Assembly: GCA_964016885.1 (NCBI GenBank)
Contig: OZ024759.1
Span: 3,596,001 to 3,660,000, forward strand
Length of the DNA: 64,000 nt
Direction: 5' to 3'
Source: Eledone cirrhosa
Lineage: Eukaryota
Shown: positions 36,001-63,806 of the stretch, in pieces
Position numbering within the stretch: position 1 is the first letter of the stretch
Layout of the letters: every line of letters starts with the position of its first letter
The notes under the pieces: generated by a model
What the model saw: the letters and a program-made list of their open reading frames with translations, nothing else
What the model was told of the DNA's origin: nothing
Database searches by the model: none
Program-made: the position numbers and the translations under genes

Positions 36001-36184
36001 CTGTGTCTACAGTGTCTGTGTCTACAGTGTCTGTGTCTACAGTGTCTGTGTGTCTACAATGTCTGTGTGTCTACAATGTCTGTGTGTCTACAGTGTCTGT
36101 GTGTCTACAGTGTCTGTGTGTCTACAGTGTCTGTGTGTCTACAGTTTCTGTGTCTACAGTGTCAGTGTCTACAGTGTCTGTGTC
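1..36184. repeat. Large satellite array of interspersed 17-bp (TCTACAGTGTCTGTGTG) and 15-bp (TCTACAGTGTCTGTG) monomers with higher-order structure; begins before the window
   Basis: Monomers are visible throughout, with recurrent variants (ACAAT, GTGAC, CTAAAA, GAGTC). Identical variant blocks recur at kb offsets. The Cys/Val/Ser ORFs in all three + frames are translations of the repeat. Confidence 0.99.
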
Positions 36185-37227
36185 CCACTGTCCCTCTATA
36201 TTGTCCGACTCTAAATGCTCTTCCTTACTGTCGAAAGCATCAAGTAATATGCTTTGAAATTTATTTCTGGCTGTGGGGTCCTTTAGCTTCCATATTTTTC
36301 TCTTGAGGATAGTCCTCTTCTGCTGTCGAGTACGTCTCGTCCTGACTATGAGGTCGCTAATTATCAGTCTATGTTGGGAGGTGCTTTCTTCATGGGGGAG
36401 GGATTTAGTGTTTACAACAGACACTCTGTCACGTCTTCTGGTAAGGATATAATCTACCTGGCTGGTATGTTCCCCTGATCTGTAGATGATCAAGCGATTG
36501 TCTCGTTTTTTGAAGTTAGTGTTACAGATAGTTAGCCTATTTGCGTCACAGAATTCCAGGGTTCTGGAGCCTTCCTCATTTCTAGTACCAAACCCATAGC
36601 CTCCGTGGATTCCGTCATAACCGTCACAATGTTGTCCAATGTGACCATTTAGGTCGCCAGCAATAGTTATATAGTCACTGTCGGTTATTTGGGAGGTAGT
36701 GAGCATCAGTGTCTCATAGAATCTGTCTTTTATAGCGCCAGGCAGTCCGGATTGGGGCGCGTACGCAGATATTACTGTCACAGTAGTACTATTTTGAACA
36801 AGTCTTATTTTAATTATTCTGTCATTCACTCTATTTACGTCTATTATCTTATCCACCCATTTTTCTGCTAACATGATTCCTACCCCACCCAGCCCATTGT
36901 CATTTCCCAGCCAGAAAAGCTTATAGCATCGTTTTTACCCACAATGAATCTAGCAGACCCGCCCCTCCACCTGATCTCTTGGATACAGCAAACATCAACC
37001 TCCTTACGTTCAAGCATTTCTACAACCTCGTTAGAGCGGCCTTTTAAGGTGCCTACATTCATGGTACCAACTCTGAAGTTTTGGATTGCGTTTGGTGGGT
37101 AGAGCGCAGGGAGGGGTGAGGGGGATGGGGTTGGGGTTATGTTGGCCATCCGCGGCCGCAACAAAGAGGAGGAGGCCTTGCCCTTTCGTCCGGCAGCATG
37201 ACGTGAATTTGTCGTTATCTTTGGCAT
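36185..37227 (-). mobile_element. RTE-clade non-LTR retrotransposon 5' fragment (APE endonuclease), frameshifted, truncated by the satellite
   Basis: ORF 36880-37227 contains RVGTMNVGTL and DVCCIQEIRW. ORF 36122-36874 contains VISAYAPQSG, IAGDLNGHIG, SQVDYIL and SQHRLIISD, which are APE motifs of RTE type. The frame breaks near 36877. Confidence 0.9.
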
Positions 37228-37552
37228 TGTCTTCGAGTGTCCAGATTCTTCAGACTCTCCAGAAATTACTTAGTCCATCCATCATATCGAAAAGTAACCA
37301 GAAGTGATAGCATAGGCCGTTGACTTGTGATTGGTCCAAATAATAAAGGTGGAGAGTGGGGGAGGGAGGGGTATGGGGTAGTTAGCGAGGAGAAGATTAT
37401 TTAGAACAGTCAGACAGAATTATAGAATAGCAATTATGAAGTAGGATTTGGATTCTGGGCGATTATAGATATATGGATGAATGAACTGAAGGGTGGGAGA
37501 CAAGAAGAAAATGTTATTTATACATTACATTTCATATGTATATTTATATATT

Positions 37553-37599
<47 letters not shown>

Positions 37600-37732
37600 G
37601 GAAAAGATGAAACGATATTTCATTTCCCACTCTTAGTACGGCTGTTACTTAAATATAAGTATGTACACGTACACACATATATGCATACCGACGTACAGTA
37701 GTATGTATATATATATATACATACATGCACAC

Positions 37733-38078
37733 ATATATATATGCACATATGGATTCACCGAATATTTATTATAATGCTCGGTGTGTTTGTAAACAAACAT
37801 CCCGTATTAAGCCGTAGTGTCTAGCAACCACCGTTGCTCGTTTGTAGCCCGTTAATATGCATAAGGTAAGTATATACGTTCAACAATCTGGCAGGAAGGT
37901 ATACGTTGCTGACGATAGCTAACAAGCTTGAAACTAGTACAGCGTTCCTTTGTCAGTGTTGAACAAACGAGCAACGGTGGTTGCTAGACACTACGGCTTA
38001 ATACGGGATGTTTGTTTACAAACATTATAATAAATATTATAATAAATATTCGGTGAATCCATACGTGCATATATATAT
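37733..38078. repeat. Fold-back structure: ~110-bp inverted arms (37733-37845 / 37963-38078) around a ~117-bp spacer carrying a hammerhead
   Basis: GGATTCACCGAATATTTATTATAAT...CCGTTGCTCGTTTGT on the left is the reverse complement of ACAAACGAGCAACGG...ATTATAATAAATATTCGGTGAATCC on the right. Confidence 0.93.
37903..37945 (+). ncRNA. Type I hammerhead ribozyme, family A copy 1
   Basis: Stem I ACGUUG/CAGCGU; core CUGACGA (37909-37915); stem II (U)AGCU-AACA-AGCU(U); GAAA (37930-37933); palindromic stem III ACUAGU; GUA cleavage triplet (37937-37939). Confidence 0.8.
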
Positions 38079-38635
38079 TAATCTGTTATTTTAATAAATA
38101 TTTTCTCTACAGTTCTTATATATTTGATATATATTTATCCTTATTGAGCCCTCTTTGGATTTTAGTCTTCAATTTTATTATTATTACTATATATATATAT
38201 ATATATACACATATAATTGTGTATTCACACATTATCTTAGTAATGATATAATAATTTTAGTAAATTGTTCAAAATTCTTCATTAACCATTTTGGTAGAAA
38301 CCCAGCCAAAATAGGTTCTCGTTATATGGAAATGGTTCCTATCTAAATTAAAGTCTTCCAACGAAATTCTATATAACAACCATATGTTATGTTACTATGT
38401 TAGTAATTAACTAACAATTGTGATAAATAGCCCAAATTATTCATAATTAATTGAAATACGAGGTTCATAATTATAATAAAATCTTCGAACAGGCTACGAA
38501 GCCGGTAAACCTTAAAGGTACGCAACACACACATCGCTATAGCGTTTCACCAGCCAATTCATTCCTCAATCATTACATAGATGTGTGTGTATGTAATAAA
38601 TATTTTGTATTGTGTCTATTTATGAATATGTATGA

Positions 38636-40006
38636 GTAGATGTGTGTGTGTGTGTAACACAGTAGATGTGTGTGTGTGTGTAACACAGTAGATGTGTGTG
38701 TATATAACACAGTAGATGTGTGTATATCACACAGTACATGTGTGTGTATGTAACTCAGTAGATGTGTGTGTATGTAACCCAGTAGATGTATGTGTATGTA
38801 ACTCAGTAGATGTGTGTGTATGTAATACAGTAGATGTGGGTATGTAACACAGTAGATGTGTGTATGTAACATAGTAGATGTGTGTATGTAACACAGTAGA
38901 TGTGTGTGTATATAACACAGTAGATGTTTGTGTATGTAACACAGTAGATGTGTGTAACACAGTAGATGTGTGTGTATGTAACACAATAGATGTGTGTGTA
39001 TATAACACAGATGTGTGTGTATGTAACACAGTAGATGTGTGTGTATGTAACACAGTAGATGTGTGTGTATGTAACATAGTAGATGTGTGTATGTAACACA
39101 GTAGATGTGTGTATTGTAACACAATAGATGTGTGTGTATGTAACACTGTAGATCTCTGTATATGTAACACAGTAGATGTGTGTATGTAACACAGTAGATG
39201 TGTGTGTATGTAATACAGTAGGTGTGTGTGTATGTAACACAGTAGATGTGTGTGTATGTAACACAGTAGATGTGTGTGTATGTAACACAGTAGATGTGTG
39301 TGTATGTAACACAGTAGATGTGAGTGTATGTAACTCAGTAGATGTGAGTGTATGTAACCCAGTAGATGTGTGTAACACAATAGATGTGTGTGTATATAAC
39401 ACAATAGATGTGTGTGTATGTAACACAGTAGATGTGTGTGTATGTAACACAGTAGATGTGTTTGTATGTAACACAGTAGATGTGTGTGTATGTAACACAT
39501 TAGATGTGTGTGTCTGTAACACAGTAGATGTGTGTGTATGTAACACAATAGATGTGTGTGTATATAACACAGTAGAAACGTGTGTTTATGTAACACAGTA
39601 GATGTGTGTGTATGTAACCCAGTAGATGTGTGCGTATATAACCCAGTAGATGTGTGTATGTAACACAGTAGATGTATGTGTATGTAACCCAGTAGATGTG
39701 TGTATGTAAGACAGTAGATGTGTGTGTATCTAAGACAGTAGATGTGTGCATGTAACACAGTAGATGTGTGTGTATGTAACACAGTAGATGTGTGTGTATG
39801 TAACACAATAGATGTGTGTGTATGTAACACTGTAGATCTCTGTATATGTAACACAGTAGATGTGTGTATGTAACACAGTAGATGTGTGTGTATGTAACAC
39901 AGTAGGTGTGTGTGTATGTAACACAGTAGATGTGTGTGTATGTAAGACAGTAGATGTGTGTGTATGTAAGACAGTAGATGTGTGTGTATGTAACACAGTA
40001 GATGTA
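38636..40006. repeat. Minisatellite, ~24-bp unit TGTAACACAGTAGATGTGTGTGTA, roughly 55-60 copies
   Basis: The tandem unit is directly visible, with a variable (TG)n part. Confidence 0.97.
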
Positions 40007-40849
40007 TATATAACTAAAGTGTAACGTAAGTTAAAATGGACGACAAAATGACTTTAACTTGTTTTTTAACAATTGATGGTGGAAAAGATTTTAAATTGTC
40101 TTAACTCAGACCATAAAGGGCTGCAACACATGGTGTTTGACACTCTTACCGGCTACATAGCCAGGGATTCTATTTTACGGGGTCCGGTTACATAGCTTCT
40201 TCTTAAAAATCTTCCAACATAATTTTATACAAGAACCACATGTTAAGTTACTAATAAAATAATTAATAATTAAAAACTTCAGTAAATCCTTCAAATGATA
40301 TCTCAGTAATGAAATAATTAATAATTGTTATAAATACCTCAAAATTCCTCATTAATTAAACCCCAGACAGGTAAAAACTCCAGAGTCTTTCAGTCGGACA
40401 TGAAACAAATTCATTTCTAATGGAAAAAGTAAAGATTGTAAAGTCAGCCAAGGGAGATCACTCTCAGCGACTTATTGTAAATCTTGTTCGTGAATTAATC
40501 CGGATTAAATTATTCTGGTGTATTTTGTGTGGAGGAAACCGGGTTTACGCGGTGATAGCGCGTAATTCAAGAACGTATGGTTCGTGAGACCGGGTAGTCT
40601 GTGCGTTGGCCCCTTGAACAAAACATTTCTCCCAGCTGGCAAAACTAATAAGTTGTACCAGTAATTATAGGGTAACGTTGTTACATAGAATTGTCACACT
40701 GAATCTCTCTGAGAACAATGTCAACGGTACACGTGTCAATGAAATACCCAGACGCATTATAATATAAGATGGATTCTATATGTATTTAAAAAGGAAGGCA
40801 TGTCACACGTTTTGTCTCGCTGAATCTCCCTGTGAACTATGTAAATACT

Positions 40850-41797
40850 AGTGACTATCAGACATAGTGTATCTCGGACTACATTATCTAATGTACAGTA
40901 CAGTAGTTAGTATTAGTGGTTATCAGACATAGTATATCTAGGACTACATTATCTAATGTACAGTACAGTAGTCAGTATTACTGGCTATCAGACATAGTGT
41001 ATCTAGGACTACATTATCTAATGTACAGTACAGTAGTTAGTATTAGTGACTATCAGACATAGTGTATCTAGGACTACATTATCTAATGTACAATACAGTA
41101 GTTAGTATCAGTGGCTATCAGACATAGTGTATCTAGGACTACATTATCTAATGTACAGTACAGTAGTTAGTATTAGTGGCTATCAGACATAGTGTATCTA
41201 GGACTACATTATCTAATGTACAGTACAGTAGTTAGTATTAGTGGCTATCAGACATAGTATATCTAGGACTACATTATCTAATGTACAGTACAGTAGTTAG
41301 TATTAGTGGCTATCAGACAGTGTATCTAGGACTACATTACCTAATGTACAGTACAGTAGTTAGTATTAGTGGCTATCAGACATAGTGTATCTAAGACTAC
41401 CTTATCTAATGTACAATATAGTAGTTAGTATTACTGGCTATCAGACATAGTGTATCTAGGAATACATTATCTAATGTACAATATAGTAGTTAGTATTACT
41501 GGCTATCAGGCATAGTGTATCTAGGAATACATTACCTATTGTACAGTGTAGTAGTTAGTATTAGTGGCTACCAGACATAGTGTATCTAGGACTACATTAC
41601 ATAATGTACAGTACAGTAATCAGTATTAGAGGCTATCAGAGATAGTGTATCTAGGACTACATTATCTAATGTACAGTACAGTAGTTAGTATTAGTGGCTA
41701 TCAGGCATAGTGTATCTAGGACTACATTATCTAATATACAGTACAGTAGTTAGTATTAGTGGCTATCAGGCATAGTGTATCTAAGACTACATTATCT
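40850..41797. repeat. 65-bp tandem repeat, ~14.5 copies
   Basis: Unit AGTGGCTATCAGACATAGTGTATCTAGGACTACATTATCTAATGTACAGTACAGTAGTTAGTATT, starting at 40850 and 40915 and continuing. Confidence 0.97.
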
Positions 41798-41829
41798 TAA
41801 CTGCACATAGCATCCAACCCTGACAGTAT

Positions 41830-42072
41830 GGTGTCCTGGAAATATGTACATTCAAAGCAGAGACCTCACTCTTCAGTTGGTCCTCTTCACAATCTCCACA
41901 CAAGCCAGGTTACTGACGACCCAAGAAATGCACAGAATTCATTGTTGAAAGAAATGGAGGCATTTTCACTGTTGAAGACCAAAATGTACCATCTCCACCA
42001 CCTCTGACATCAGATTCTATTACAACTATGGAATTTAGACCTGCAATGCCACCTTACAAAACCTCTACGTAG
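41830..42072 (+). mobile_element. Degenerate CR1/L2/Jockey-group LINE ORF2 fragment (region preceding the RT domain)
   Basis: Manual translation gives SWKYVHSKQRPHSSVGPL...VTDDP and, after a frameshift, IFTVEDQNVPSPPPLTSDSITTMEF. This resembles the FWKY...GPL...FTxED linker of such elements. Confidence 0.5.
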
Positions 42073-42312
42073 TCTTTCTAACTGCTAGAAATAGCAGCGA
42101 TATTATCCATTACAACTTCGTTTTTTTGTTTAAAATATCCAAAGTTTAGTTATGAAATCAACAGCAAGTCCTTTGCACAGACTTCGGAATAAACTCGAAG
42201 ACCGTCAAAATATCATTCTCCTTCTCTCTCTCTTTAAACAAAGAATAGCTGCTTTCAACCTTAACGGGATCTTCTGAAACTCATTATTTTAATCAATAGT
42301 TGCTCTACGGCT

Positions 42313-42364
<52 letters not shown>

Positions 42365-42457
42365 GTAATTCCGTCGGAAAAGTGCAGGAAAAAAGAGTGC
42401 TCTATGTAGGCAACAGAGCTTAATTATTATTATGTAATAAACAACATAAGGCAATTA

Positions 42458-42517
42458 TTCCATTTACCAGTGGTTTCTTAAAAGCAAAAGGTTTTGCTTT
42501 CAATCCTCAGAATGAAA
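42458..42517 (-). ncRNA. Type I hammerhead ribozyme, family B copy 1
   Basis: Minus strand reads UUUCAUU-CUGAGGA-UUGAAAGCAAA(ACCU)UUUGCUUUUAA-GAAA-CCACUG-GUA-AAUGGAA, giving a 7-bp stem I, an 11-bp stem II and a short stem III. Confidence 0.78.
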
Positions 42518-42662
42518 AAATCCTGGTTTGTTTATTGAATTTGGATTTTAAAAAACAAAAATGCAAACTATATGAAAGTGAGGCTGGAGAAGGGAGAAGG
42601 AAAGGAAAAATAAAATAAAACTACACATGCAAACACACACACAAAAACACAAAAGCATACAT

Positions 42663-42727
<65 letters not shown>

Positions 42728-42977
42728 CACATATATATAAAAAAAAACATTGACACTCCTATGATAAATCAACCGCCTTGAAATCCTTCCCTGCTCTTTA
42801 CTTCTGCTACGGTTTTTATTTTGCTGATTCTACGTTCTGTACTCTTGTATATTTACTTATTTTTTTCTCCCTTACCTCCCCTTATATTTTATCTTTTCTT
42901 ATGCCCCCCCCCCCCATATATTCTGTTTGCCTTGCCCTTCACATACCTATGTGTATGTGTATGTATATTTGTGTGTA

Positions 42978-43046
<69 letters not shown>

Positions 43047-43123
43047 GTGTGTGTATGTGTATGTGTGTATATATATGTATATATTTGTGTGTGTGTATGT
43101 ATATGTGGATAAACCAGGGTTTT

Positions 43124-43183
43124 TTTCATTCTGAAGATTGAAGGAAAAATTTTTTGCTTTTAAGAAACCACTGGTGAATGGAA
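43124..43183 (+). ncRNA. Hammerhead family B copy 2, probably inactive (GUG triplet)
   Basis: UUUCAUU-CUGAAGA-stem II with one mismatch-GAAA-CCACUG-GUG-AAUGGAA. G at the cleavage position violates the NUH rule. Confidence 0.6.
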
Positions 43184-43344
43184 TAATTGCCTTATGTTGC
43201 TTTATTACTTTACTACTATATATACGTATATGTAAGGTTCATATGAATTATCTAAGACTGAGTCTTACACATACACACATGTATGTGTGTGTGTGTGTAT
43301 GTGTATGCATGTGTATATATATGTATGTATATGTATGTATGTAT

Positions 43345-44351
43345 GTAGCAGCAAGTGCCCACAAAATACTAGCTCTTTCAATTGCGCAGAGGGTTCTATA
43401 GAAATAGTGGACAGCTTCCGTTACCTGGGCGATAAAATCAGCAGTGGGGGAGGGTGCTCTGAAAGTACTGTAGCTAGAGTCAGAACTGGTTGGAAAAAGT
43501 TCAGAGAGCTTATACCACTATTAGCTGCTAAAGGGTTCTCCCTAAAAATGAAAGGCAGGTTGTACGATGCCTGCATACGAACAGCAATGTTGCATGGTAG
43601 TGAGACCTGGGCATTGTGTGCAGAGGATATACGCAGACTAGAGAGGAACGAAGCTTGCATGCTCCGCTGGATGTGTAACAGTAATATACGTGAACGGCAA
43701 AGCATAAACGAACTAAGGAAAAAATTAGAGATAAGAGGGATCAGATGTTGTTTACTCGAGAGAAGGCTGCGTTGGTATGGACACGTGATGCGCATGAAAG
43801 TCGATAGCTGTATTACAAAGTGCAGGGCAATAAAGATAGACGGTAGCCACGGAATAGGCAGACCTAGAAAAACATGGGATGAGCTGATAAACTCCGACCT
43901 CACACACTTACACCTCTCCAAGACAATGTCACTGGACCGTGACCTTTGGCGGTACTCAGTAACAGAGAAGACCCGCCTTGCCAGTAGGCATATCTAACAA
44001 AATACACCCCTCCCGCCGCCACCCCCACCCCATCCACACCACCCCGTTCTATGTAAAGTTATGTTGGTGCCGCGCCATCCAGGCCGAAACAAATGAGATC
44101 GTGTAGGTGTCACGACAAAAAAAACACACAGTCCACGCTGTAATGTGGCCGTGTAGGCAACACGGTAAAAACCTCCCAGACCCACACTGTAAATGTGGTT
44201 GGTGTTAGGAAGGGCATCCAACTGTAGAAAACCTGCCAGACAGTCCTATGCGAGCAAGACAATCACTCTTGCCTCAAGTGGGACTACCCCCGTCCAAACC
44301 CATGCAAGCGTGGAACACGGACGTTAAACGTTGATGATGATGATGATGATG
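43345..44351 (+). mobile_element. RTE-clade LINE 3' fragment (end of ORF, 3' UTR and (TGA)n tail)
   Basis: IEIVDSFRYLGD, KGRLYDACIRTAMLHGSETW, RRLRWYGHVMRM and GRPRKTW are typical post-RT RTE motifs. Stop at 43997; tail ACGGACGTTAAACGT(TGA)n at about 44317-44351. Confidence 0.9.
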
Positions 44352-44561
44352 ATATATATGTGTATATATATATATGTATATATATATGTGTGTATATGTA
44401 TGCGTGTGTATGTATATATGTATGTGTGTCTGTGTTTGTGTTTGTATTTGGTTGTGCGTGTTTATGATATGTACGTATTTGTATGTGTATAATTGTTTAG
44501 CTATGTATGTATATGTGTGTGTATGTATACGTATGTGTGTGTGTGTGCGTTTATATTTATG

Positions 44562-44632
<71 letters not shown>

Positions 44633-45042
44633 ATATAATTACATATACATATGTGTGTGTATATATTGTATACGTGTGCGTATTTGTGCATGTATGTGCA
44701 TGTATGTGTTTATGTATTTGTATATGTATATTTATGTGTGAGAGTGTGTGTATGTGTTTACGATTTCGTACGTATGTATACGTGCATTTGTGTGTATTAC
44801 TTACCACGCGTGTCTGTCCAGTTAGCTGCCTTATGTAATGGTGTCAAAAAATTTTTTTAATATATATATATATTTTTTCTTATATTTATTTGCGTGTGTG
44901 AATATGTAGAGGAGTGCATTTATGTATGTGTATGTACGTATGTATATATGTATGATTGTGTGAATGTATGTATGTATATATGTGTGTGTGTATGGCTATG
45001 TTTGTGTATGTGTATGCTTGTACACACATATATATATATGTA

Positions 45043-45091
<49 letters not shown>

Positions 45092-45198
45092 ATATGTGTG
45101 TGTGTATGTGTATGTATGCGTGTATGTATGTGTATATGTGTATGTATGTGCATGTGTATATTTGTGTATGTATATATATATGTGTATATGTATATATG

Positions 45199-45229
<31 letters not shown>

Positions 45230-45230
45230 A
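44352..45230. repeat. Compound (TA)n/(TG)n microsatellite region
   Basis: Directly visible low-complexity sequence. Confidence 0.95.
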
Positions 45231-45468
45231 TGTATGCTTTTGTGTTTTTTTGTGTGTGTGTTTGCATGTGTAGTTTTATTTTATTTTTCCTTTCCTTCTT
45301 CCTTCTCCAGCCTCACTTTCATATAGATTGCATTTTTGTTTTTTAAAATCCAAATTCAATAAACAAACCAGGATTTTTTCATTCTGAGGATTGAAAGCAA
45401 AACCTTTTGCTTTTAAGAAACCACTGGTAAATGGAATAATTGCCTTATCTTGTTTATTACATAATAAT
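45200..45468 (+). repeat. Near-identical inverted copy of 42425-42700 (hammerhead family B terminus)
   Basis: About 250 bp of non-microsatellite sequence is the reverse complement of 42425-42670, with only a few differences. Confidence 0.95.
45377..45436 (+). ncRNA. Type I hammerhead ribozyme, family B copy 3
   Basis: Stem I 45377-45383/45430-45436; CUGAGGA 45384-45390; stem II 45391-45401/45406-45416; GAAA 45417-45420; GUA 45427-45429. Confidence 0.78.
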
Positions 45469-45749
45469 ATTTTACATGGTAGACATTATTTGAATTTTGA
45501 AAATGTGAGACCAGAGAAATTGCTTCATGTGACACTGTAAGAAAACATTAAAAAATGAAATGTATATCTTCTTCTTTATCATTAAGTATGTCAGCAGCAG
45601 CAGCACCACACACACACACACATATATATATACAGAGAGAGAGAGAGAGAAGAGAGAGAGTAGTTAATAATAAATACAAAGACCAAAATCTAGAGAGGGC
45701 TCAATAAGATAAGAGTTTTATGTATATATATATATATACATATATATGT

Positions 45750-46076
45750 ATCATCATCATCATTTTACGTCCACTTTTCCCTGCTTGCGAGGGTGGGACG
45801 GAAACTGATTCTGGTTTGATTTCTACAGCTGGATGCCCTTCCTACCACCAACCTTATTTACAGTGAGTGCTGGGTGCTTTTTTGCTGTGGCACCTCCACG
45901 ACCACTTTGCAGTGGAATGATAGAGGCCCAAGTCCCTATCATCTCATTTCTACAGCTGAGTAAACTGGAGCAATGTGAAATAAAGTGTCTTGCTCAAGGA
46001 AACAACACATCACCCGGTTTGAGAATTGAACTCACAACCTTTCGATTGCAAGGCCAATGCTCTAACCACTAAGCCA
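45750..46076 (-). mobile_element. tRNA-derived SINE head plus an RTE-type 3' tail (composite)
   Basis: Minus strand has an A box TGGCTTAGTGG, a B-box-like GAGTTCAATTC and CTTGAGCAAGACAC. The tail CAAGCAGGGAAAAGTGGACGTAAAA(TGA)n matches 52607-52640. Confidence 0.75.
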
Positions 46077-46298
46077 TAGAGAGAGAGAGAAGTGAGAGAG
46101 TAGTTAATAATAAATAGAAACACCAAAATCTGGAGAGGGCTCAATAAGATAAGAGTTATATATATATATATGTATATATATAAGTTGAAAAAAATGAAAA
46201 CGAAATTTCATTTCTCACTCTTAGTATGGCACTTACTTAAATGTAAGTATGTATGTATACGTACATACATATATGTATACGGACGTACAGTAGCATGC

Positions 46299-46331
<33 letters not shown>

Positions 46332-46482
46332 TACAGGTACACATACATATATGCACGCATCAGTTTAGCGGACGCTTATTATAACGCCGCTTTGTTCGTT
46401 TGTCAACAAACTGAACAGCCTGAATTTATGCCATACGGTGTTAAGGTAACCACGTCACCTTTTTGTTCAACACTGACACAGG

Positions 46483-46527
46483 AACGATGTACTAGTTTCA
46501 AGCTTGTTAGCTATCATCAGCACCGTT
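46483..46527 (-). ncRNA. Type I hammerhead ribozyme, family A copy 2
   Basis: Minus strand reads AACGGUG-CUGAUGA-UAGCUAACAAGCUU-GAAA-CUA-GUA-CAUCGUU. The core is canonical and stem I is 7 bp. Confidence 0.85.
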
Positions 46528-46636
46528 TACCTATCTGCCAGATAGTTGAACGTTCGAAAGTATATTCTTTCCTTATCAAAATTAACGGCTGAGCAGCCTA
46601 ATTTGCATATTGAGTGAGTTAAATCGGTCAGGCATC

Positions 46637-51374: not shown

Positions 51375-51512
51375 TTGACTGGCAGCTGTGTCCCCTGTAA
51401 CCAGGTGAGCACCTTCCATTGATGCAGATACCATTGTCAGAGTAACATTTGCCATTATTCAGACAGTGGCACTTCTTCACACAGTTGACACCAAACATGC
51501 CATGGGCACATC
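51375..51512 (-). CDS. Exon (138 nt, phase 1-1), EGF-like repeat
   Basis: tctcag|...|gtaagt; translates to GCAHGMFGVNCVKKCHCLNNGKCYSDNGICINGRCSPGYRGHSCQS. Confidence 0.92.
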
Positions 51513-51540
51513 CTGAGAAAACAACTTCAATATGTAATTA

Positions 51541-56475: not shown

Positions 56476-56582
56476 CCTTACTAACCCATGTATCGAATAC
56501 TCTGTTCAGTAATGGTCTAACTAGTTTTAAACTGGTTCTATCCTGATTTATGTTAAAGGTATAAAGGTATCTATATACTTAT

Positions 56583-56771
56583 GAAAGACCTCCACTTCAC
56601 ACATGCTAAGGCTAGGTCCTGACAGCAGAATTATTGTGATTTTGTTGCCCTTAACAGGACTAGAACATTGCACATCAATAACTTTTGTCTTCTCTAGATT
56701 GGAAATCTTCTCACATATTCTGTGTTTTTTGTCTTTTGATACCAACACTATTATTGAGAATTTATTTTGTG
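56583..56771 (-). CDS. Exon (189 nt, phase 1-1) encoding the C-terminal part of a galactose-binding-like/F-type-lectin-like domain; non-canonical donor
   Basis: Acceptor ttttctgcag|; translates to QNKFSIIV...ICEK...VQCSSPVKGNKITIIL...LSMCEVEVF. The L-x-x-CEVEV motif typically precedes EGF arrays. The in-phase donor reads ataagt. Confidence 0.8.
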
Positions 56772-57006
56772 CTGCAGAAAAACATGGTAAGAAAGTTAAA
56801 ACAAAAAACAAATAGCAATGGTATTTGGTGGTGATGGTGGTGAGGAGGAGGGAGATTTGGGTGAAGTTTAGTCAAAAACTGATTGGCAAACATGGGCTTG
56901 GACCAGTGCAAGATTTAGGGCACATGAAGCCCTGTGCTAGTTATGTTATGAGGCCTCTTACTCGTAAAAAATTCATCATAAAAAATTGTGCCAAATTTAG
57001 AATTAA

Positions 57007-58976: not shown

Positions 58977-61900
58977 CTACAGGCTGATATAGAGAGAAGA
59001 CCCATTCACTCTGGCCATTCTCCCTACTTTCACCCACCTTTCATAAAACTTGCTGGGGTAGAGCACCTCTCTCTCCATTCTGATCCTTCTTTTAAAATGG
59101 TATTTGAAAAAGAGGACCAGTTGTTGGCCGGAGAGAAAGGTGTCTGACCTCAGCCCTTTCAGCCTCGTCCACCATACAACTTCTTTAGCCATGGCTATCA
59201 CACAGAGAAAAACCGCCTCTCCTTCGTTTTTGAAAGGGGGAGGCGCTTTGATCGTGACAATGGACTCGGTGGTCAACCGGATTGGTTCCACCCTCAACAG
59301 TAGTCGTTCCACATAGCCCCACAGGTCAGCAATGCCTGGGCAGTGTACGAATGCGTGCGCAACGGTTTCGTCATCATGCACGCATCTCGGACAGATCTTA
59401 TTCAAAGGATCTCTACCTAGGCTCCCATGCCTGTGGAGCTTGTCTCGAACGGGTAGAGCCCCTCGGTAGCACTGCCAAGCCAGGGACTTTTGGAAGTTGT
59501 CCATCGGTCCAGGGCCAAACGTCCTACCGAACAGACTGGCCAGTTCATCTTCCTCTATGCCTAGAGCTTCTCCGAGAGCATCGTCGCACCTGCTGCGTAC
59601 CAACCCTCTATAGAATGTCGAGGTGGAGTCTCCACTGATTGCCGGGTCCGCTTTCCAGAGGGCCGTGAGCGCCTGGGCACATTCAATGTGCCAGTCGCCC
59701 ACTTTTCTCGGTCTTTGCTTGACCCAGGATTGCAGCTCGGTGAGCGAGACGAGTCTGGGAAAGGCTCGCCTCACAAACGGGGCCCACACCGGTTGACCGG
59801 TGAGGAATACCTGGAGGTGCCGTAGCCTTAATGCGTATTTACGCATCTGTAGCCACGGCATCCCCAGCCCTCCTTTCGAAGGGTGTTGACAGCAGATGGA
59901 TCTCCTCACCAAAGGGGTCCGCTTGTTCCAAAGAAATTGGAACAGCGCGCACTCCATTTTGGCGAGTCTTTTCACTGGGCAAGGCACGACGGTCAAGCGG
60001 TAGTAGATGACGGATGCTATATAAGTATTCGCCACCTCCGCTCGACCTTTCAGGGATAGTTTGCACTGGGCCCACTTCTGGGTGAGTGCAAACAGCCTGG
60101 CCGTTACCTCGTTCCAGTTTTTCTCCACCTGGAGGTCTGGTCCGAACCAGACCCCAAGCAGCTTCACCGGGCCCTCCGTCCAGCGTCCGAGGACGTCGTT
60201 GGAGGGCATCGGTTTGCCTCTCCATGTTCCGAGTTGCAAACCGACGGACTTGTCCCGGTTCAGCTTGGCTCCTGTAAACCTTTCATATTCCTCCAGTAAG
60301 GTGCCGATCTCACCGATTTGCGAGGTTTTCGACACCATTACTGTCACGTCATCGGCGTAGGCCGACGCCGCTTTCTGCAATCCCGGTTCCAAAGGGATGC
60401 CCTGCAACCGCTCCAACTTCCGCAGTAGTGGCTCAAGAGCCAGCACATACAGTAGGGAGGAGAGAGGGTATCCCTGTTGGATGGATCGCATGATTTGGAA
60501 TGGCTCCGAGAGGTGGCCGTTCACCTTGACCCTTGAGCAGACGTTGCTGCTGTGCATCGCAGCAATCCAACCCCTGAAAACGGGTCCGAAGCCTGCCGCC
60601 GCGAGCACCGCATCCAGGTAACGATGGTCAACCCTATCGAAAGCTTTAGATTGATCCAAGTTGATCAGGGCCCCACCCCAAAGCCGGTTTCATTCCCTAC
60701 CCTCTCTATGATGTATCGCATAAGGTGGAGATTGTCGTGAATGGACCTGGACGGGATTGTGCATGTCTGCGCTTCTCCCACCAGGTTTCCAACGACAAGC
60801 GCCAACCTCTTCGCTAACACCTTGGCCAAAATCTTTAACTCTGTATTTAGCAGAGTTATGGGCCTGAAGTTATTTATGTCATCCCCCTTGTTCTCATCCT
60901 TCCTCACCAGCGTAACTACGCCCTTGGTCACAGAACTGGGAATTCTCCCGTTCTGCTGCCAGTTGCAGTAGACAGCTTCGAAGATATCGGAGAACAAGTC
61001 CGGCATCGCTACATATAGCTCGTATGGTAGACCATCGAGACCCGGGGATTTGCGTTTGCTGCATTGGCTCAGCGCCGCCCCTATCTCAGCAGCTGAAATC
61101 GTCCTTTCGCAGGACTTCGCCTCCGCGTCCGAGAGGCGCGGCAGACCGTCGAGGTATGGATTGAAATCCATAGTCTCACCCGGCGCGCCGCCCCTCTCGA
61201 ACAGTCATGCAAAGTGCCACTGAAAGGCCGCACACATCTGCCCAGGTTCAAGGATCACACGCCCATCCTGGTCCTTCAAAGACCGAATCGTGGACTTGTT
61301 ACCACTTTTTGCCTCTGTCACTCGGGCCCAGCTCACAGCTTTGGCTCCCTCATTACCCAGAGCACGTATTTTACTCCTGACAACGCAGCCTTCATGCTTC
61401 ACCTCAAAGAACTGGTCTAAGGCCATTCTTGATGCCAGCACGCCGGCTACATTGCCACTCCTAATCGCCTCATCTACTCTATCTACTAATTCCCTTTCCG
61501 TCTTGTTCCTATCCCTTGCTAATTCCTGACTAAAACCTATCGATTCTATTCTAATTGCTCTCTTAAGAGAGATTCACCACCTGTTGTTGACAATTGCCCC
61601 TGTCAAACTCTGCTTAACTAACGTGCTAATCCGTTTACTGTAAGCTTTGCTTCTCGGTAAGGACAAGTTCAGCTTCCAGTAACCGGGTCCCTGTCTATGG
61701 GTTCTATCAAGGTTGGCTATGCAGGTCACTAACTTGTGATCCGAATAGTCAACCATGAACATTTTTGGACAGCTAAATGTGTCCCTATCCTTCTCTCTAA
61801 CTAGGACCCTATCTAGGTACGACCTAGATGTTCCACTGCGATTGGTCCACGTCCATAGTGGTACAGTCGGAAAATCTAGTCGATATCTATCGGCCAGGTC

Positions 61901-62424
61901 AAATCGGCCGATTAACCTTTTGAGGCTTTTACACCCCCCTCTATTGGCACATGCCCCTACATAGTCCCAACGTGCATCCAGGATACCATTCCAGTCCCCC
62001 ACTAAAAGCAAGGAGCGGGACGTTCCCAGAAAAGTTTCCAGACGTTGGAAGTATTCCGGCCGCGCTGCCCAAAAAGGGGCGTACACAGCTATTAGTCTAA
62101 GGGCTCCACTTTCACTACTGCCGACGTCTAAAACCACCAGTCGACCCTCCGGGTCCAGGTGCACCTTCTGTATGGCGAGGCCCAGGTGTTTTCGCAGCAG
62201 AACAACAACTCCACCCCCACCCCCCCCCCACCCGGTTGACAGAGAGATGCGAAGATCTCAAAGTCGTCGAAGAGGGGCGCCAGTTGGTGCTCGCTGCTGA
62301 TCCTGGACTCGCAAATAGCCATTACATCCATTCTATGCGACCTGAGATCGTTTAAAAGTTTGCCTTGTTTCCAAGACAGTCCCAGGCCGCGTACATTCAG
62401 ACACCCAACTCTTATATCAGCCAT
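58977..62424 (-). pseudogene. ORF2 (APE endonuclease-reverse transcriptase-zinc finger), disrupted
   Basis: Motifs CLNVRGL, VYAP, VGDWN, SYLDR, SDHK, KSPGLDGLP, FRPITLLN, DQSKAFDRVDH, QGYPLS, YADD and CPRC..ETVAHAFVHC. In-frame TGA stops at 61574 and 61205; frameshifts near 62215 and 60670. Confidence 0.92.
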
Positions 62425-62445
62425 GTTGGTTAAAAGAGGAAGGAC

Positions 62446-63806
62446 CTACCTGTTCGGCTCCTGAGGAGCAGGTTGCACAATATCCATGGGCGTATTGGAG
62501 GGGTTGTTTGGTGGGGTGTTGTTCTGTGGTGGAGTGGGGGTGTTTGGTGAGGTGTGGGTGGGGAAACGTTTCAAGAGGACGCGGTTATAGGGTCGAGTAC
62601 ATGTTTTCCCCACGTCCTCAGGAAAGTTCTCTCTTAGTTTTGCATAGGTGTCCATTGGGAGTCTTATCATTTTTAAATGCGGTTTGTTGGCCGCGCTTGC
62701 AAAGAATTGCCCTTCAGTTTCCACCGAAGGGTCTTTGTGTATTGTTTTTACTAGTTCTTTGTTATTTGTGTTAATGTATGTATACTGTTTTATTTGTGTT
62801 GTGTTTGTTTGTTGTTCTTGTGTGTGCTTACGTTTTGTTGTATGTGTTATGTTTTGGGGTGGGGCGGATTTTGTTTGTTCTGTTTGTTTTGTTTTTGTTG
62901 GTGGTTGTGTGTTTGTTTCGTTTATGTTCGAGTGGTGCTTTCTTTTTTTCCTTTTTACAGGTTGGAAGGGTTCCTCTTCTTCGTCACTAGGTGCCGTTTC
63001 AGCTGGGTCCTCGTCCGTGTTGTCGGGTAGTGGTGTATTTTGGGGTTTTGTTGTATTTGTGTGTGTTTTGGGAGTTGTTTTGGGTGGGGCCGTGTCTTGT
63101 GTTATTTTTCCGTGTTGTTTTTGTTGTTGTTGTGGTGGTGGCGGTGGTGGTGTGTGGGGTGTAGGCAAAAGAGCCTTTTTTTTGTCAATTGAGGACAAGC
63201 AGCCCTTAGATGACCCCTGCTTGAACAGTAGTAACATATGGGCCTCCTACCCTCGGCTGAAATGTATATAAATGTTTCTCCATCGAGGGACACCCTCTGT
63301 GGTATTCTAGCTATTCGTTCTGATCTCATTTGGACCAGAACCTCCACGCTCAAACCGCCGAAAACGTCTGTGGTGACTTCTCCTACTGAGAGGATTCCGT
63401 CCTCGTCTTCTAAAAATCCTGTTAGTACCCAGGAAATGCATGCATTTGGCCGGATTCCGGAGACCCTTATCTTCTGCGTTCTTTTCCCTAAATATGTGGG
63501 GAAAAATGTATGTAGCTTGGAAACAATTGGCGCCACAGAGTATTTCCTGGCCGTCAATTGATCCTTCATTAGGACCGTTATATTCCCATAGAGTGGCCCT
63601 TTTTGTATGAACGATATATCACTCCACACATTTTTTAGGACCAGCTCAATCTCTTTTTGGGATAATTGAGCTGGTTTCCTTGTTATGTTGGAAATTGTTC
63701 TGAAAGATATCGTTCTTAGCGTCGTGTCTCTTTTGATTTCTTGTGGGGAGGTGATTGTGAAGTCTCCTCCTTCTTTGAAAGTTACATACTGTTTCGCTTC
63801 CTTCAT
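62446..63806 (-). pseudogene. ORF1 (gag-like, zinc knuckle), frameshifted
   Basis: CYYCSSRGHLRAAC is a CX2CX4HX4C knuckle. The frame switches at the T-run 63176-63183 into a Pro/Thr/Lys-rich tail, which stops 21 nt before the ORF2 ATG. Confidence 0.82.

What the first reader, a model, noticed from the sequence alone, without database searches (positions are those of the whole stretch)
37896..46532. Compensatory stem change between two diverged family-A hammerheads
The flanks of the two copies (37597-37845 vs 46180-46466) are visibly diverged, yet stem II, GAAA and stem III are identical. Stem I changes from ACGUUG/CAGCGU (U-G) to ACGGUG/CAUCGU (G-U), and the core differs only at the free N7 position (CUGACGA vs CUGAUGA). 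Both copies can extend stem I past an internal loop (AGG/CCU). This pattern is expected from selection on ribozyme structure. Stem II is closed by an unusual U-U in both copies.
Basis: seen in the sequence. Interest (0 to 1): 0.75.

Follow-up and report, generated by a model that had tools for sequence, protein, structure and literature searches.

The report
Two hammerhead retrozyme subfamilies, Penelope-inserted
These are two copies, from two subfamilies, of a very abundant non-coding jumping repeat that carries a predicted self-cutting RNA motif; the paired stem change is real but of a kind already published, and the more useful result is that the repeat's insertion ends match those of Penelope-type retrotransposons, which likely copy it.

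Summary
Both hammerheads are real type I motifs with the described U·G/G·U change. They belong to subfamilies A1 and A2 of a retrozyme: tandem units of 420-540 nt, 13,716 exact core matches in this 3-Gb genome.

The change is not one direct swap. An older A-U lineage (about 3,100 matches) lies between them, and G·U arose twice from it. The flanks are not a neutral baseline: they keep one branched fold with their own paired changes. U·U closure is a family trait (C·A, G-C and A-U also occur) and is published for axolotl; compensatory stem I changes are published for cricket repeats.

The better result is the insertion footprint. 3' ends sit at two fixed sites 51-59 nt apart beside (TA)n, and 25 of 26 scorable two-armed insertions use one site at each end. 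A young autonomous Penelope-like element here shows the same rule with a 60-nt tail. Cleavage, expression, circles and the helper's identity are untested; three RNA runs gave no cover.

This scan found the same kind of element before on other DNA. New member of a known kind; interest 0.38.

The parts
37594..37845 (-). Inverted 5'-truncated arm of insertion 1 (subfamily A1, unit positions 24 to 275); ends at fixed site S2 against (TA)n 37534-37596
37849..38078 (+). Direct arm of insertion 1 (A1, unit positions 332-422 then 1-136); its 3' end is not at a fixed site and abuts the end of another repeat at 38079
37903..37945 (+). Type I hammerhead, copy 1; U·G at 2.3/1.3; predicted cut between 37939 and 37940 (GUA)
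   Evidence: 1,820 exact genome matches of the 37-mer
37879..37964 (+). Extended stem I of copy 1 (internal loop, AGG/CCU and further pairs)
37970..37985 (+). Downstream hairpin P2 of A1; its counterpart in copy 2 (46444-46460, - strand) has other letters but still pairs
46180..46635 (-). Insertion 2, single arm (subfamily A2, unit positions 321-466 then 1-310); 3' end at fixed site S2 against (TA)n
46484..46526 (-). Type I hammerhead, copy 2; G·U at 2.3/1.3; predicted cut between 46490 and 46489
   Evidence: 10,329 exact genome matches of the 37-mer
46180..46238 (-). Tail of insertion 2: about 59 nt between fixed end sites S1 and S2 (limits blurred by TA microhomology)

Best explanation
The two motifs are copies of subfamilies A1 and A2 of a high-copy, non-coding tandem repeat (a retrozyme) whose insertions end at two fixed sites beside (TA)n, and whose RNA likely cuts itself with paired hammerheads, likely closes into a circle, and is likely copied into the genome by a Penelope-like enzyme. 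Shown: the motif, the families, the copy numbers, the tandem and head-to-head layout, the two-site end rule, the same rule in an autonomous Penelope-like element, and near identity of units within one insertion. Inferred: a tandem array is transcribed; two hammerheads pair through the palindromic helix III (ACUAGU) and cut; the monomer is ligated; the helper nicks both strands of (TA)n and starts reverse transcription at S1 on one strand and S2 on the other, 220-310 nt downstream of the cut site; it runs through the cut site for up to many turns; the two 5'-truncated copies join head to head. Only templates that still fold can found new lineages, so stems and flank helices change in pairs between subfamilies.
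For: Pairing kept at 2.3/1.3 in 173 of 178 copies. Over 10 monomers, 10 of 29 chosen pairs change on both sides; 91.7% of cells pair against 22-40% for slid controls. Circular monomers of A1-A4 and C fold into the same branched shape, z -4.3 to -14.3 with 20 shuffles each, although A and C are only 61-63% alike. Of 195 arm ends, 60 are at S1, 71 at S2 and 64 elsewhere; TA-rich sequence follows 53 of 60, 58 of 71 and 13 of 64. Of 55 head-to-head pairs, 26 have both ends at fixed sites and 25 of these are S1+S2 (P 4e-7; 24 of 25 without one duplicated locus). Families B and C have two end sites too. The autonomous element (ORF about 1,240 codons, YVDD, CX4CX2C, GIY-YIG-like end) ends at two sites 60 nt apart in 39 of 43 rows, the other 4 running into the ORF. 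Units differ by 0.2% within arrays against 1.8% (A1) and 3.5% (A2) between them; opposite arms differ by 0.23%. Inverted copy and tail are Penelope hallmarks (PMC8557442), and the tail lies between two RT start sites (PMC11167929).
Against: No RNA evidence: three RNA runs gave no cover on either subfamily. Double changes in the flanks are not significant on their own (P 0.07-0.27). Fold z-scores include the self-complementary (TA)n hairpin, and the opposite strand folds better in 3 of 11 monomers. The sequences are related, so the pair counts are few independent events. The monomers show no homology to the candidate helper beyond nested insertions and AT-rich matches. A Penelope hammerhead was not needed for insertion in vitro, and 8 of 9 Xenopus retrozyme dimers did not cleave. 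One family C array carries a patchy helix III variant, which points to some local amplification after insertion.
Confidence: 0.62

Rival explanations
1. Same element and same Penelope helper, but the template is an uncut linear multimer transcribed from a tandem array; the hammerhead is conserved for another step and circles play no part in copying.
For: In the Anolis element uncut RNA was the main substrate and hammerhead mutants still inserted. Weak helix III and U·U closure gave 22% monomer cleavage in one hour in axolotl. Insertions read through the cut site, which a multimer also allows.
Against: Units in one insertion, both arms included, are almost identical while insertions differ. Arms of 10 units occur (L139). 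The hammerhead and whole-unit fold are kept across lineages.
Confidence: 0.25
2. The units are stumps of a Penelope terminal repeat, dropped by an autonomous element and expanded on the spot like a satellite by unequal crossover; they do not move by themselves.
For: This route is proposed in 10.64898/2026.07.22.740005. Many copies are single and truncated, including both in this window. One array has patchy variants.
Against: Multi-unit arrays still end at S1 and S2 and have tandem units on both sides of the inversion. No sampled end continued past S2 into a shared ORF-like sequence. The one autonomous family examined has a different terminal repeat and hammerhead. Only one autonomous family was examined.
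Confidence: 0.08
3. The two stem I changes are drift in a young repeat; nothing selects on RNA structure.
For: One double change in 43 nt between units 17% apart is not rare by itself, and one flank stretch is as conserved.
Against: Pairing is kept through five pair types in family A and through both-side changes in stems I, II and the long-range helix in family C. Helix III stays palindromic with different letters in families A and B.
Confidence: 0.05

Closest known systems
Metazoan non-LTR retrozymes of coral, mussel and axolotl (Cervera and de la Pena 2020, PMC7229834; parts 2-4 of 6 read, supplement not readable)
   Same: Tandem non-coding units, GC under 50%, canonical type I hammerhead, self-paired predicted circle; axolotl HHR_Amex2 has a 2-bp helix III and a U·U at the base of helix II and cleaves well as a dimer
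   Different: Units here are 420-540 nt, at or above their 150-450 bp range, with an internal (TA)n hairpin of variable length; the two-armed layout and two-site ends are not described in the parts read; expression is not shown here
pDo500 hammerhead satellite of Dolichopoda crickets (Martinsen et al. 2010, PMC2837043; passages read)
   Different: There the changes are at 1.2/2.2 and 10.1/11.1; here at 1.3/2.3, and the rest of the unit is also structurally constrained
Endonuclease-bearing Penelope-like elements (Craig et al. 2021, PMC8557442, passages; Frangieh et al. 2024, PMC11167929, part 2 of 4)
   Same: Partial tandems, inverted 5'-truncated copy, tail at one end only, AT-rich or (TA)n targets, two RT start sites
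   Different: No RT or endonuclease; canonical rather than minimal hammerhead; tail 51-59 nt in family A, about 69 in C and 26 in B, against 30-40 bp
Vertebrate retrozymes as non-autonomous Penelope derivatives (Li, Clavereau and Pollet 2026, 10.64898/2026.07.22.740005; parts 1 and 3 of 5)
   Same: Same conclusion on origin and helper
   Different: They argue from co-occurrence and terminal-repeat homology and favour local tandem expansion; here the evidence is the insertion ends, and no homologous terminal repeat was found in the one family examined

Membership tests
Canonical metazoan type I hammerhead | Core CUGANGA, GAAA and NUH cleavage triplet | tested here: met
   CUGACGA or CUGAUGA, GAAA, GUA in both copies
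Canonical metazoan type I hammerhead | Helix I 6 bp, helix II 4 bp, helix III 1-2 bp with a small palindromic loop (PMC4209133) | tested here: met
   6 bp; U·U plus 3 pairs with a 6-nt loop; 2 bp with loop UA, palindrome ACUAGU
Canonical metazoan type I hammerhead | G10.1-C11.1 pair (usual, with published exceptions) | tested here: not met
   U·U in 148 and C·A in 27 of 178 family A copies; G-C in family C; U·U precedent in axolotl
Canonical metazoan type I hammerhead | Loop 1 to loop 2 tertiary contacts | tested here: inconclusive
   Internal loop UAU/UAA with a U, and loop 2 UAA(C/U)(A/G)A, recur in families A, B and C; contacts were not modelled
Canonical metazoan type I hammerhead | Self-cleavage | not testable with these tools
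   Needs an assay; Rfam has no hit at E up to 1
Non-LTR retrozyme | Tandem units of a few hundred bp, one type I hammerhead each, GC under 50% | tested here: met
   A1 420-433 nt (21 monomers), A2 464-538 nt (21 monomers), GC 0.32-0.38 in those folded; the two window copies themselves are partial units
Non-LTR retrozyme | No protein coding | tested here: met
   Only a low-complexity stop-to-stop frame on the opposite strand overlaps copy 2, none of 100 aa or more overlaps copy 1
Non-LTR retrozyme | Expressed as linear and circular RNA | tested here: inconclusive
   Three RNA runs, contigs only, small word share, 0 laid
Non-LTR retrozyme | Lack of LTR, PBS and PPT; target duplications when present | not tested
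   Ends lie in (TA)n, where duplications cannot be read
Penelope-type insertion | Inverted 5'-truncated copy joined head to head | tested here: met
   55 head-to-head pairs among 202 arms, window copy 1 included
Penelope-type insertion | Tail at one end only | tested here: met
   25 of 26 scorable pairs S1+S2; 4 two-armed family B insertions likewise
Penelope-type insertion | Microsatellite target bias | tested here: met
   TA-rich sequence after 111 of 131 fixed-site ends against 13 of 64 others
Autonomous Penelope-like element | RT and GIY-YIG ORF between terminal repeats | tested here: not met
   Units repeat head to tail with no ORF
Derivative of a known autonomous Penelope terminal repeat | Sequence homology to the helper's terminal repeat | tested here: inconclusive
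   None to the one family examined; other families not examined

The most novel reading that the evidence does not exclude
The whole 420-540 nt RNA, not only the hammerhead, is a conserved folded circle kept across families only 61% alike. It presents two start sites about 60 nt apart to one particular young Penelope-like element of this genome (60-nt tail, ends reading TAT|CG as at site S2 of families A and C). The mismatched U·U or C·A base of helix II damps cutting so that circles survive as templates. Parasite and helper could then be reconstituted together in vitro as a rolling-circle retrotransposition system.
Probability: 0.3. Interest if true: 0.68.

Novelty: new member of a known kind. 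Interest (0 to 1): 0.38.

Why it matters
The stem change itself adds little: such changes and the U·U closure are in print. The insertion ends matter more. Which enzyme spreads animal retrozymes has been argued from co-occurrence and homology (PMC7229834; 10.64898/2026.07.22.740005). Here three retrozyme families and an autonomous Penelope-like element in one genome obey the same two-site end rule in (TA)n, which names a candidate helper and the expected RT start points for an assay. The genome also holds a natural allelic series at helix II closure (U·U, C·A, A-U, G-C) among at least 45,000 pattern matches, useful for asking how weak hammerheads work.

Tried and rejected
Rfam scan: no hammerhead hit. 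DNA search of the genome with the 100-nt motif: nothing, the search skips very common words. One search used a stem II one base too long and returned only 24 stray variants. RNA evidence: runs X1-X3 held 5-7% of words and laid nothing on A2 or A1; X9 laid nothing on A1; this shows neither expression nor its absence. RNAalifold on the 10-row MAFFT alignment missed hairpin P2 because loop lengths differ, and the same misalignment counts real pairs as broken. A U·U copy at 2.3/1.3 (L157) sits between the U·G and A-U clades in the tree, but it shares an insertion with an A-U copy, so I do not count it as an intermediate. One of the two C-G copies (L158) takes its C from flanking DNA. No pile-up of 5' ends at the cut site was seen among 199 starts, but copies were found through their hammerhead, so the sample is biased. 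Pfam gave no hit on two full helper ORFs and a sub-threshold GIY-YIG hit on a related fragment; its clade (Neptune or Nematis) rests on the CX4CX2C motif and PMC8557442, not on a tree. Lünse et al. 2017 on dimeric Penelope hammerheads was not held and the supplement of PMC7229834 could not be read; either may list a cephalopod example. R-scape was not available.
Full report
Observation. Each has the core CUGANGA, a helix II of U·U plus three pairs under a 6-nt loop, GAAA, a 2-bp helix III within the palindrome ACUAGU, and a GUA site. Stem I is ACGUUG/CAGCGU in copy 1 and ACGGUG/CAUCGU in copy 2. Stem I extends well past AGG/CCU. Rfam has no hammerhead hit, but the layout fits the canonical metazoan type I form in PMC4209133.

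The family. The genome is 3.0 Gb. I take it for an octopus from recall of its repeats and from earlier scan notes; no call shows this. The 26-letter core plus stem II pattern has 13,716 matches and the reversed control 0. The exact 37-letter haplotype of copy 1 (A1) has 1,820 matches and that of copy 2 (A2) 10,329, together 89% of the total. Copies sit singly or in tandem units of 420-433 nt (A1) and 464-538 nt (A2), often as two arms joined head to head. Looser patterns found A3 (mostly A-U at the changing pair; 3,132 matches), A4 (mostly C·A closing helix II; 1,343), family B (310 nt, U·U; all 100 listed of 15,139 matches) and family C (466 nt, G-C closure; among 16,301 matches, control 36). 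C is homologous to A at 61-63%; B shares only the hammerhead region.

The stem change. In 178 distinct family A copies from 105 clusters, position 2.3/1.3 is G·U in 102, U·G in 40, A-U in 28, C-G in 2, G-C in 1 and unpaired in 5. The sample was shaped by my search patterns and comes mostly from contig C1. A tree of 114 rows (151 columns, bootstrap not settled) puts U·G copies next to the family C outgroup (U-A), then A-U copies, with G·U arising twice inside them: A2 (39 rows, 100/99) and A4 (22 rows, 96/98). So U·G and G·U are linked through A-U, and only one step needs both sides to change. Between A1 and A2 the motif differs at 3 of 43 columns and the flanks, without the AT hairpin, at 60 of 282 (P 0.011). 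However, 20 of 330 flank windows, all in one stretch, are as conserved.

The flanks. Folded as circles, 11 real monomers gave z of -4.3 to -14.3 against 20 shuffles each, and A1-A4 and C share one branched shape. The (TA)n hairpin inflates these scores. With A1's fold as reference and that hairpin left out, A2 breaks 14 flank pairs against 21.7 expected (P 0.007); the six comparisons gave P 0.004-0.061, while double changes alone were not significant (P 0.07-0.27). On 10 of my 36 representative monomers, 10 of 29 hand-chosen pairs change on both sides: 3 in stem I, 3 in helix II, 3 in a long-range helix and 1 in a further helix where family C is misaligned; slid controls pair at 22-40% against 91.7%. 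These rows are related, so the events are few. The fair reading is that the whole RNA is constrained.

The U·U closure. It is the family state (148 of 178), with C·A in 27. Family B shares it and has an A-U variant; C has G-C. Axolotl HHR_Amex2 has the same U·U, cleaves 22% in an hour as a monomer and much better as a dimer (PMC7229834). A hammerhead better conserved than its repeat, with compensatory stem changes, is reported for cricket pDo500 (PMC2837043).

The insertion ends. 3' ends cluster at two unit positions: 219 and 275 in A1, 251 and 305-310 in A2, 241 and 298 in A3, 228 and 279 in A4. Of 202 arms, 195 ended inside their locus: 60 at S1, 71 at S2 and 64 elsewhere, some of the last being stray AT-rich hits. 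Of 55 head-to-head pairs, 26 had both ends at fixed sites: 25 were S1+S2, 1 was S1+S1 (P 4e-7); 23 had at least one end elsewhere with neither cut by the locus edge, and 6 were cut by the edge. In family B, 13 of 17 ends lie at 139 or 164-170; in C, 8 of 8 at 229-234 or 302-304. Both window insertions have an S2 end. This matches the tail found at only one end of Penelope-like insertions (PMC8557442), which in Anolis is the stretch between two RT start sites (PMC11167929).

A candidate helper. A protein fragment beside one copy found 40,823 first-look candidates; the 150 scored were 96-100% identical, with open frames up to 1,261 codons. A full copy has terminal repeats, an inverted truncated arm, a YVDD motif, CX4CX2C and a GIY-YIG-like end, and by eye a minimal hammerhead in its terminal repeat. 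Of 43 rows, 19 end at one site and 20 at another 60 nt on, all against TA-rich sequence; 4 run into the ORF; 6 loci show one site at each end. Both ends read TAT|CG, as do S2 of families A and C. There is no real homology to the retrozyme and other (TA)n-targeting families exist, so this is a candidate only.

Mechanism. Units within an array differ by 0.2% (40 pairs in A1, 12 in A2) and opposite arms by 0.23% (17 pairs, A1 only), against 1.8% and 3.5% between arrays. Insertions start 220-310 nt downstream of the cut site and read through it. The simplest account is one ligated circle copied from two start points by a Penelope-like enzyme. An uncut multimer is the main rival. Cleavage, ligation and expression are inferred from relatives; the RNA runs available gave no cover. 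A run of another labelled organism holds family A pieces (6 contigs).

Novelty. Seven paper searches listed no description of cephalopod retrozymes and none that reads their helper from insertion ends. One key paper and one supplement could not be seen. After my analysis I found that earlier scan notes report the same kind of element and footprint on other DNA, this genome included; they are not independent support. Verdict: real, a new member of a known kind.

Noticed in passing
window 42422-42737 (-), 45157-45472 (+), and 43119-43190 (+): Another hammerhead family: cores at 42510 (-), 45384 (+) and a degenerate one at 43131, with an 11-bp helix II and a GUA site; the first two lie in 316-nt inverted arms. 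A 33-letter piece has 1,679 genome matches, with several opposite-strand pairs 4-5 kb apart, so it may be the terminal repeat of an autonomous element.
   Followed up: partly
G000:C11:10052000-10059700 (L245) and relatives: Young, very abundant Penelope-like family with ORFs to 1,261 codons, two end sites 60 nt apart and a minimal-hammerhead-like motif with a CUA site; Pfam does not recognise the ORF.
   Followed up: partly
G000:C1:5738327-5752443: Family C array of about 31 units on one strand plus one inverted unit.
   Followed up: no
G000:C1:14044536-14051131: Family C array in which 4 of 15 units have a non-palindromic helix III, in no regular period.
   Followed up: no
L002:183 (-), L107:2600 (+): A further hammerhead family with U·U closure and a longer helix III.
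   Followed up: no
L002 about 1820-1990; also L085, L152, L196: Another small fold-back element with two fixed ends against (TA)n.
   Followed up: no
window 1-36183: 17-bp satellite of about 2,200 copies.
   Followed up: no
window 36122-37269 (-), 43236-43997 (+), 58977-63246 (-): LINE fragments: endonuclease-like and RT-end pieces (labels recalled, no Pfam hit), and an element with RVT_1 and zf-RVT hits.
   Followed up: partly
window about 51390-51520 (-) and 56548-56871 (-): Possible exons of a minus-strand gene: a cysteine-rich EGF-like piece and a lectin-like piece (labels recalled; Pfam did not confirm them). The hammerhead copies may lie in or after this gene.
   Followed up: no
window 45900-46078: SINE-like repeat with a weak tRNA-like Rfam match at 46019-46076 (-), E 0.088.
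   Followed up: no
L123 (G000:C1:19620300-19626400): A whole two-armed A1 insertion appears twice, 2.6 kb apart, as a local duplication.
   Followed up: no
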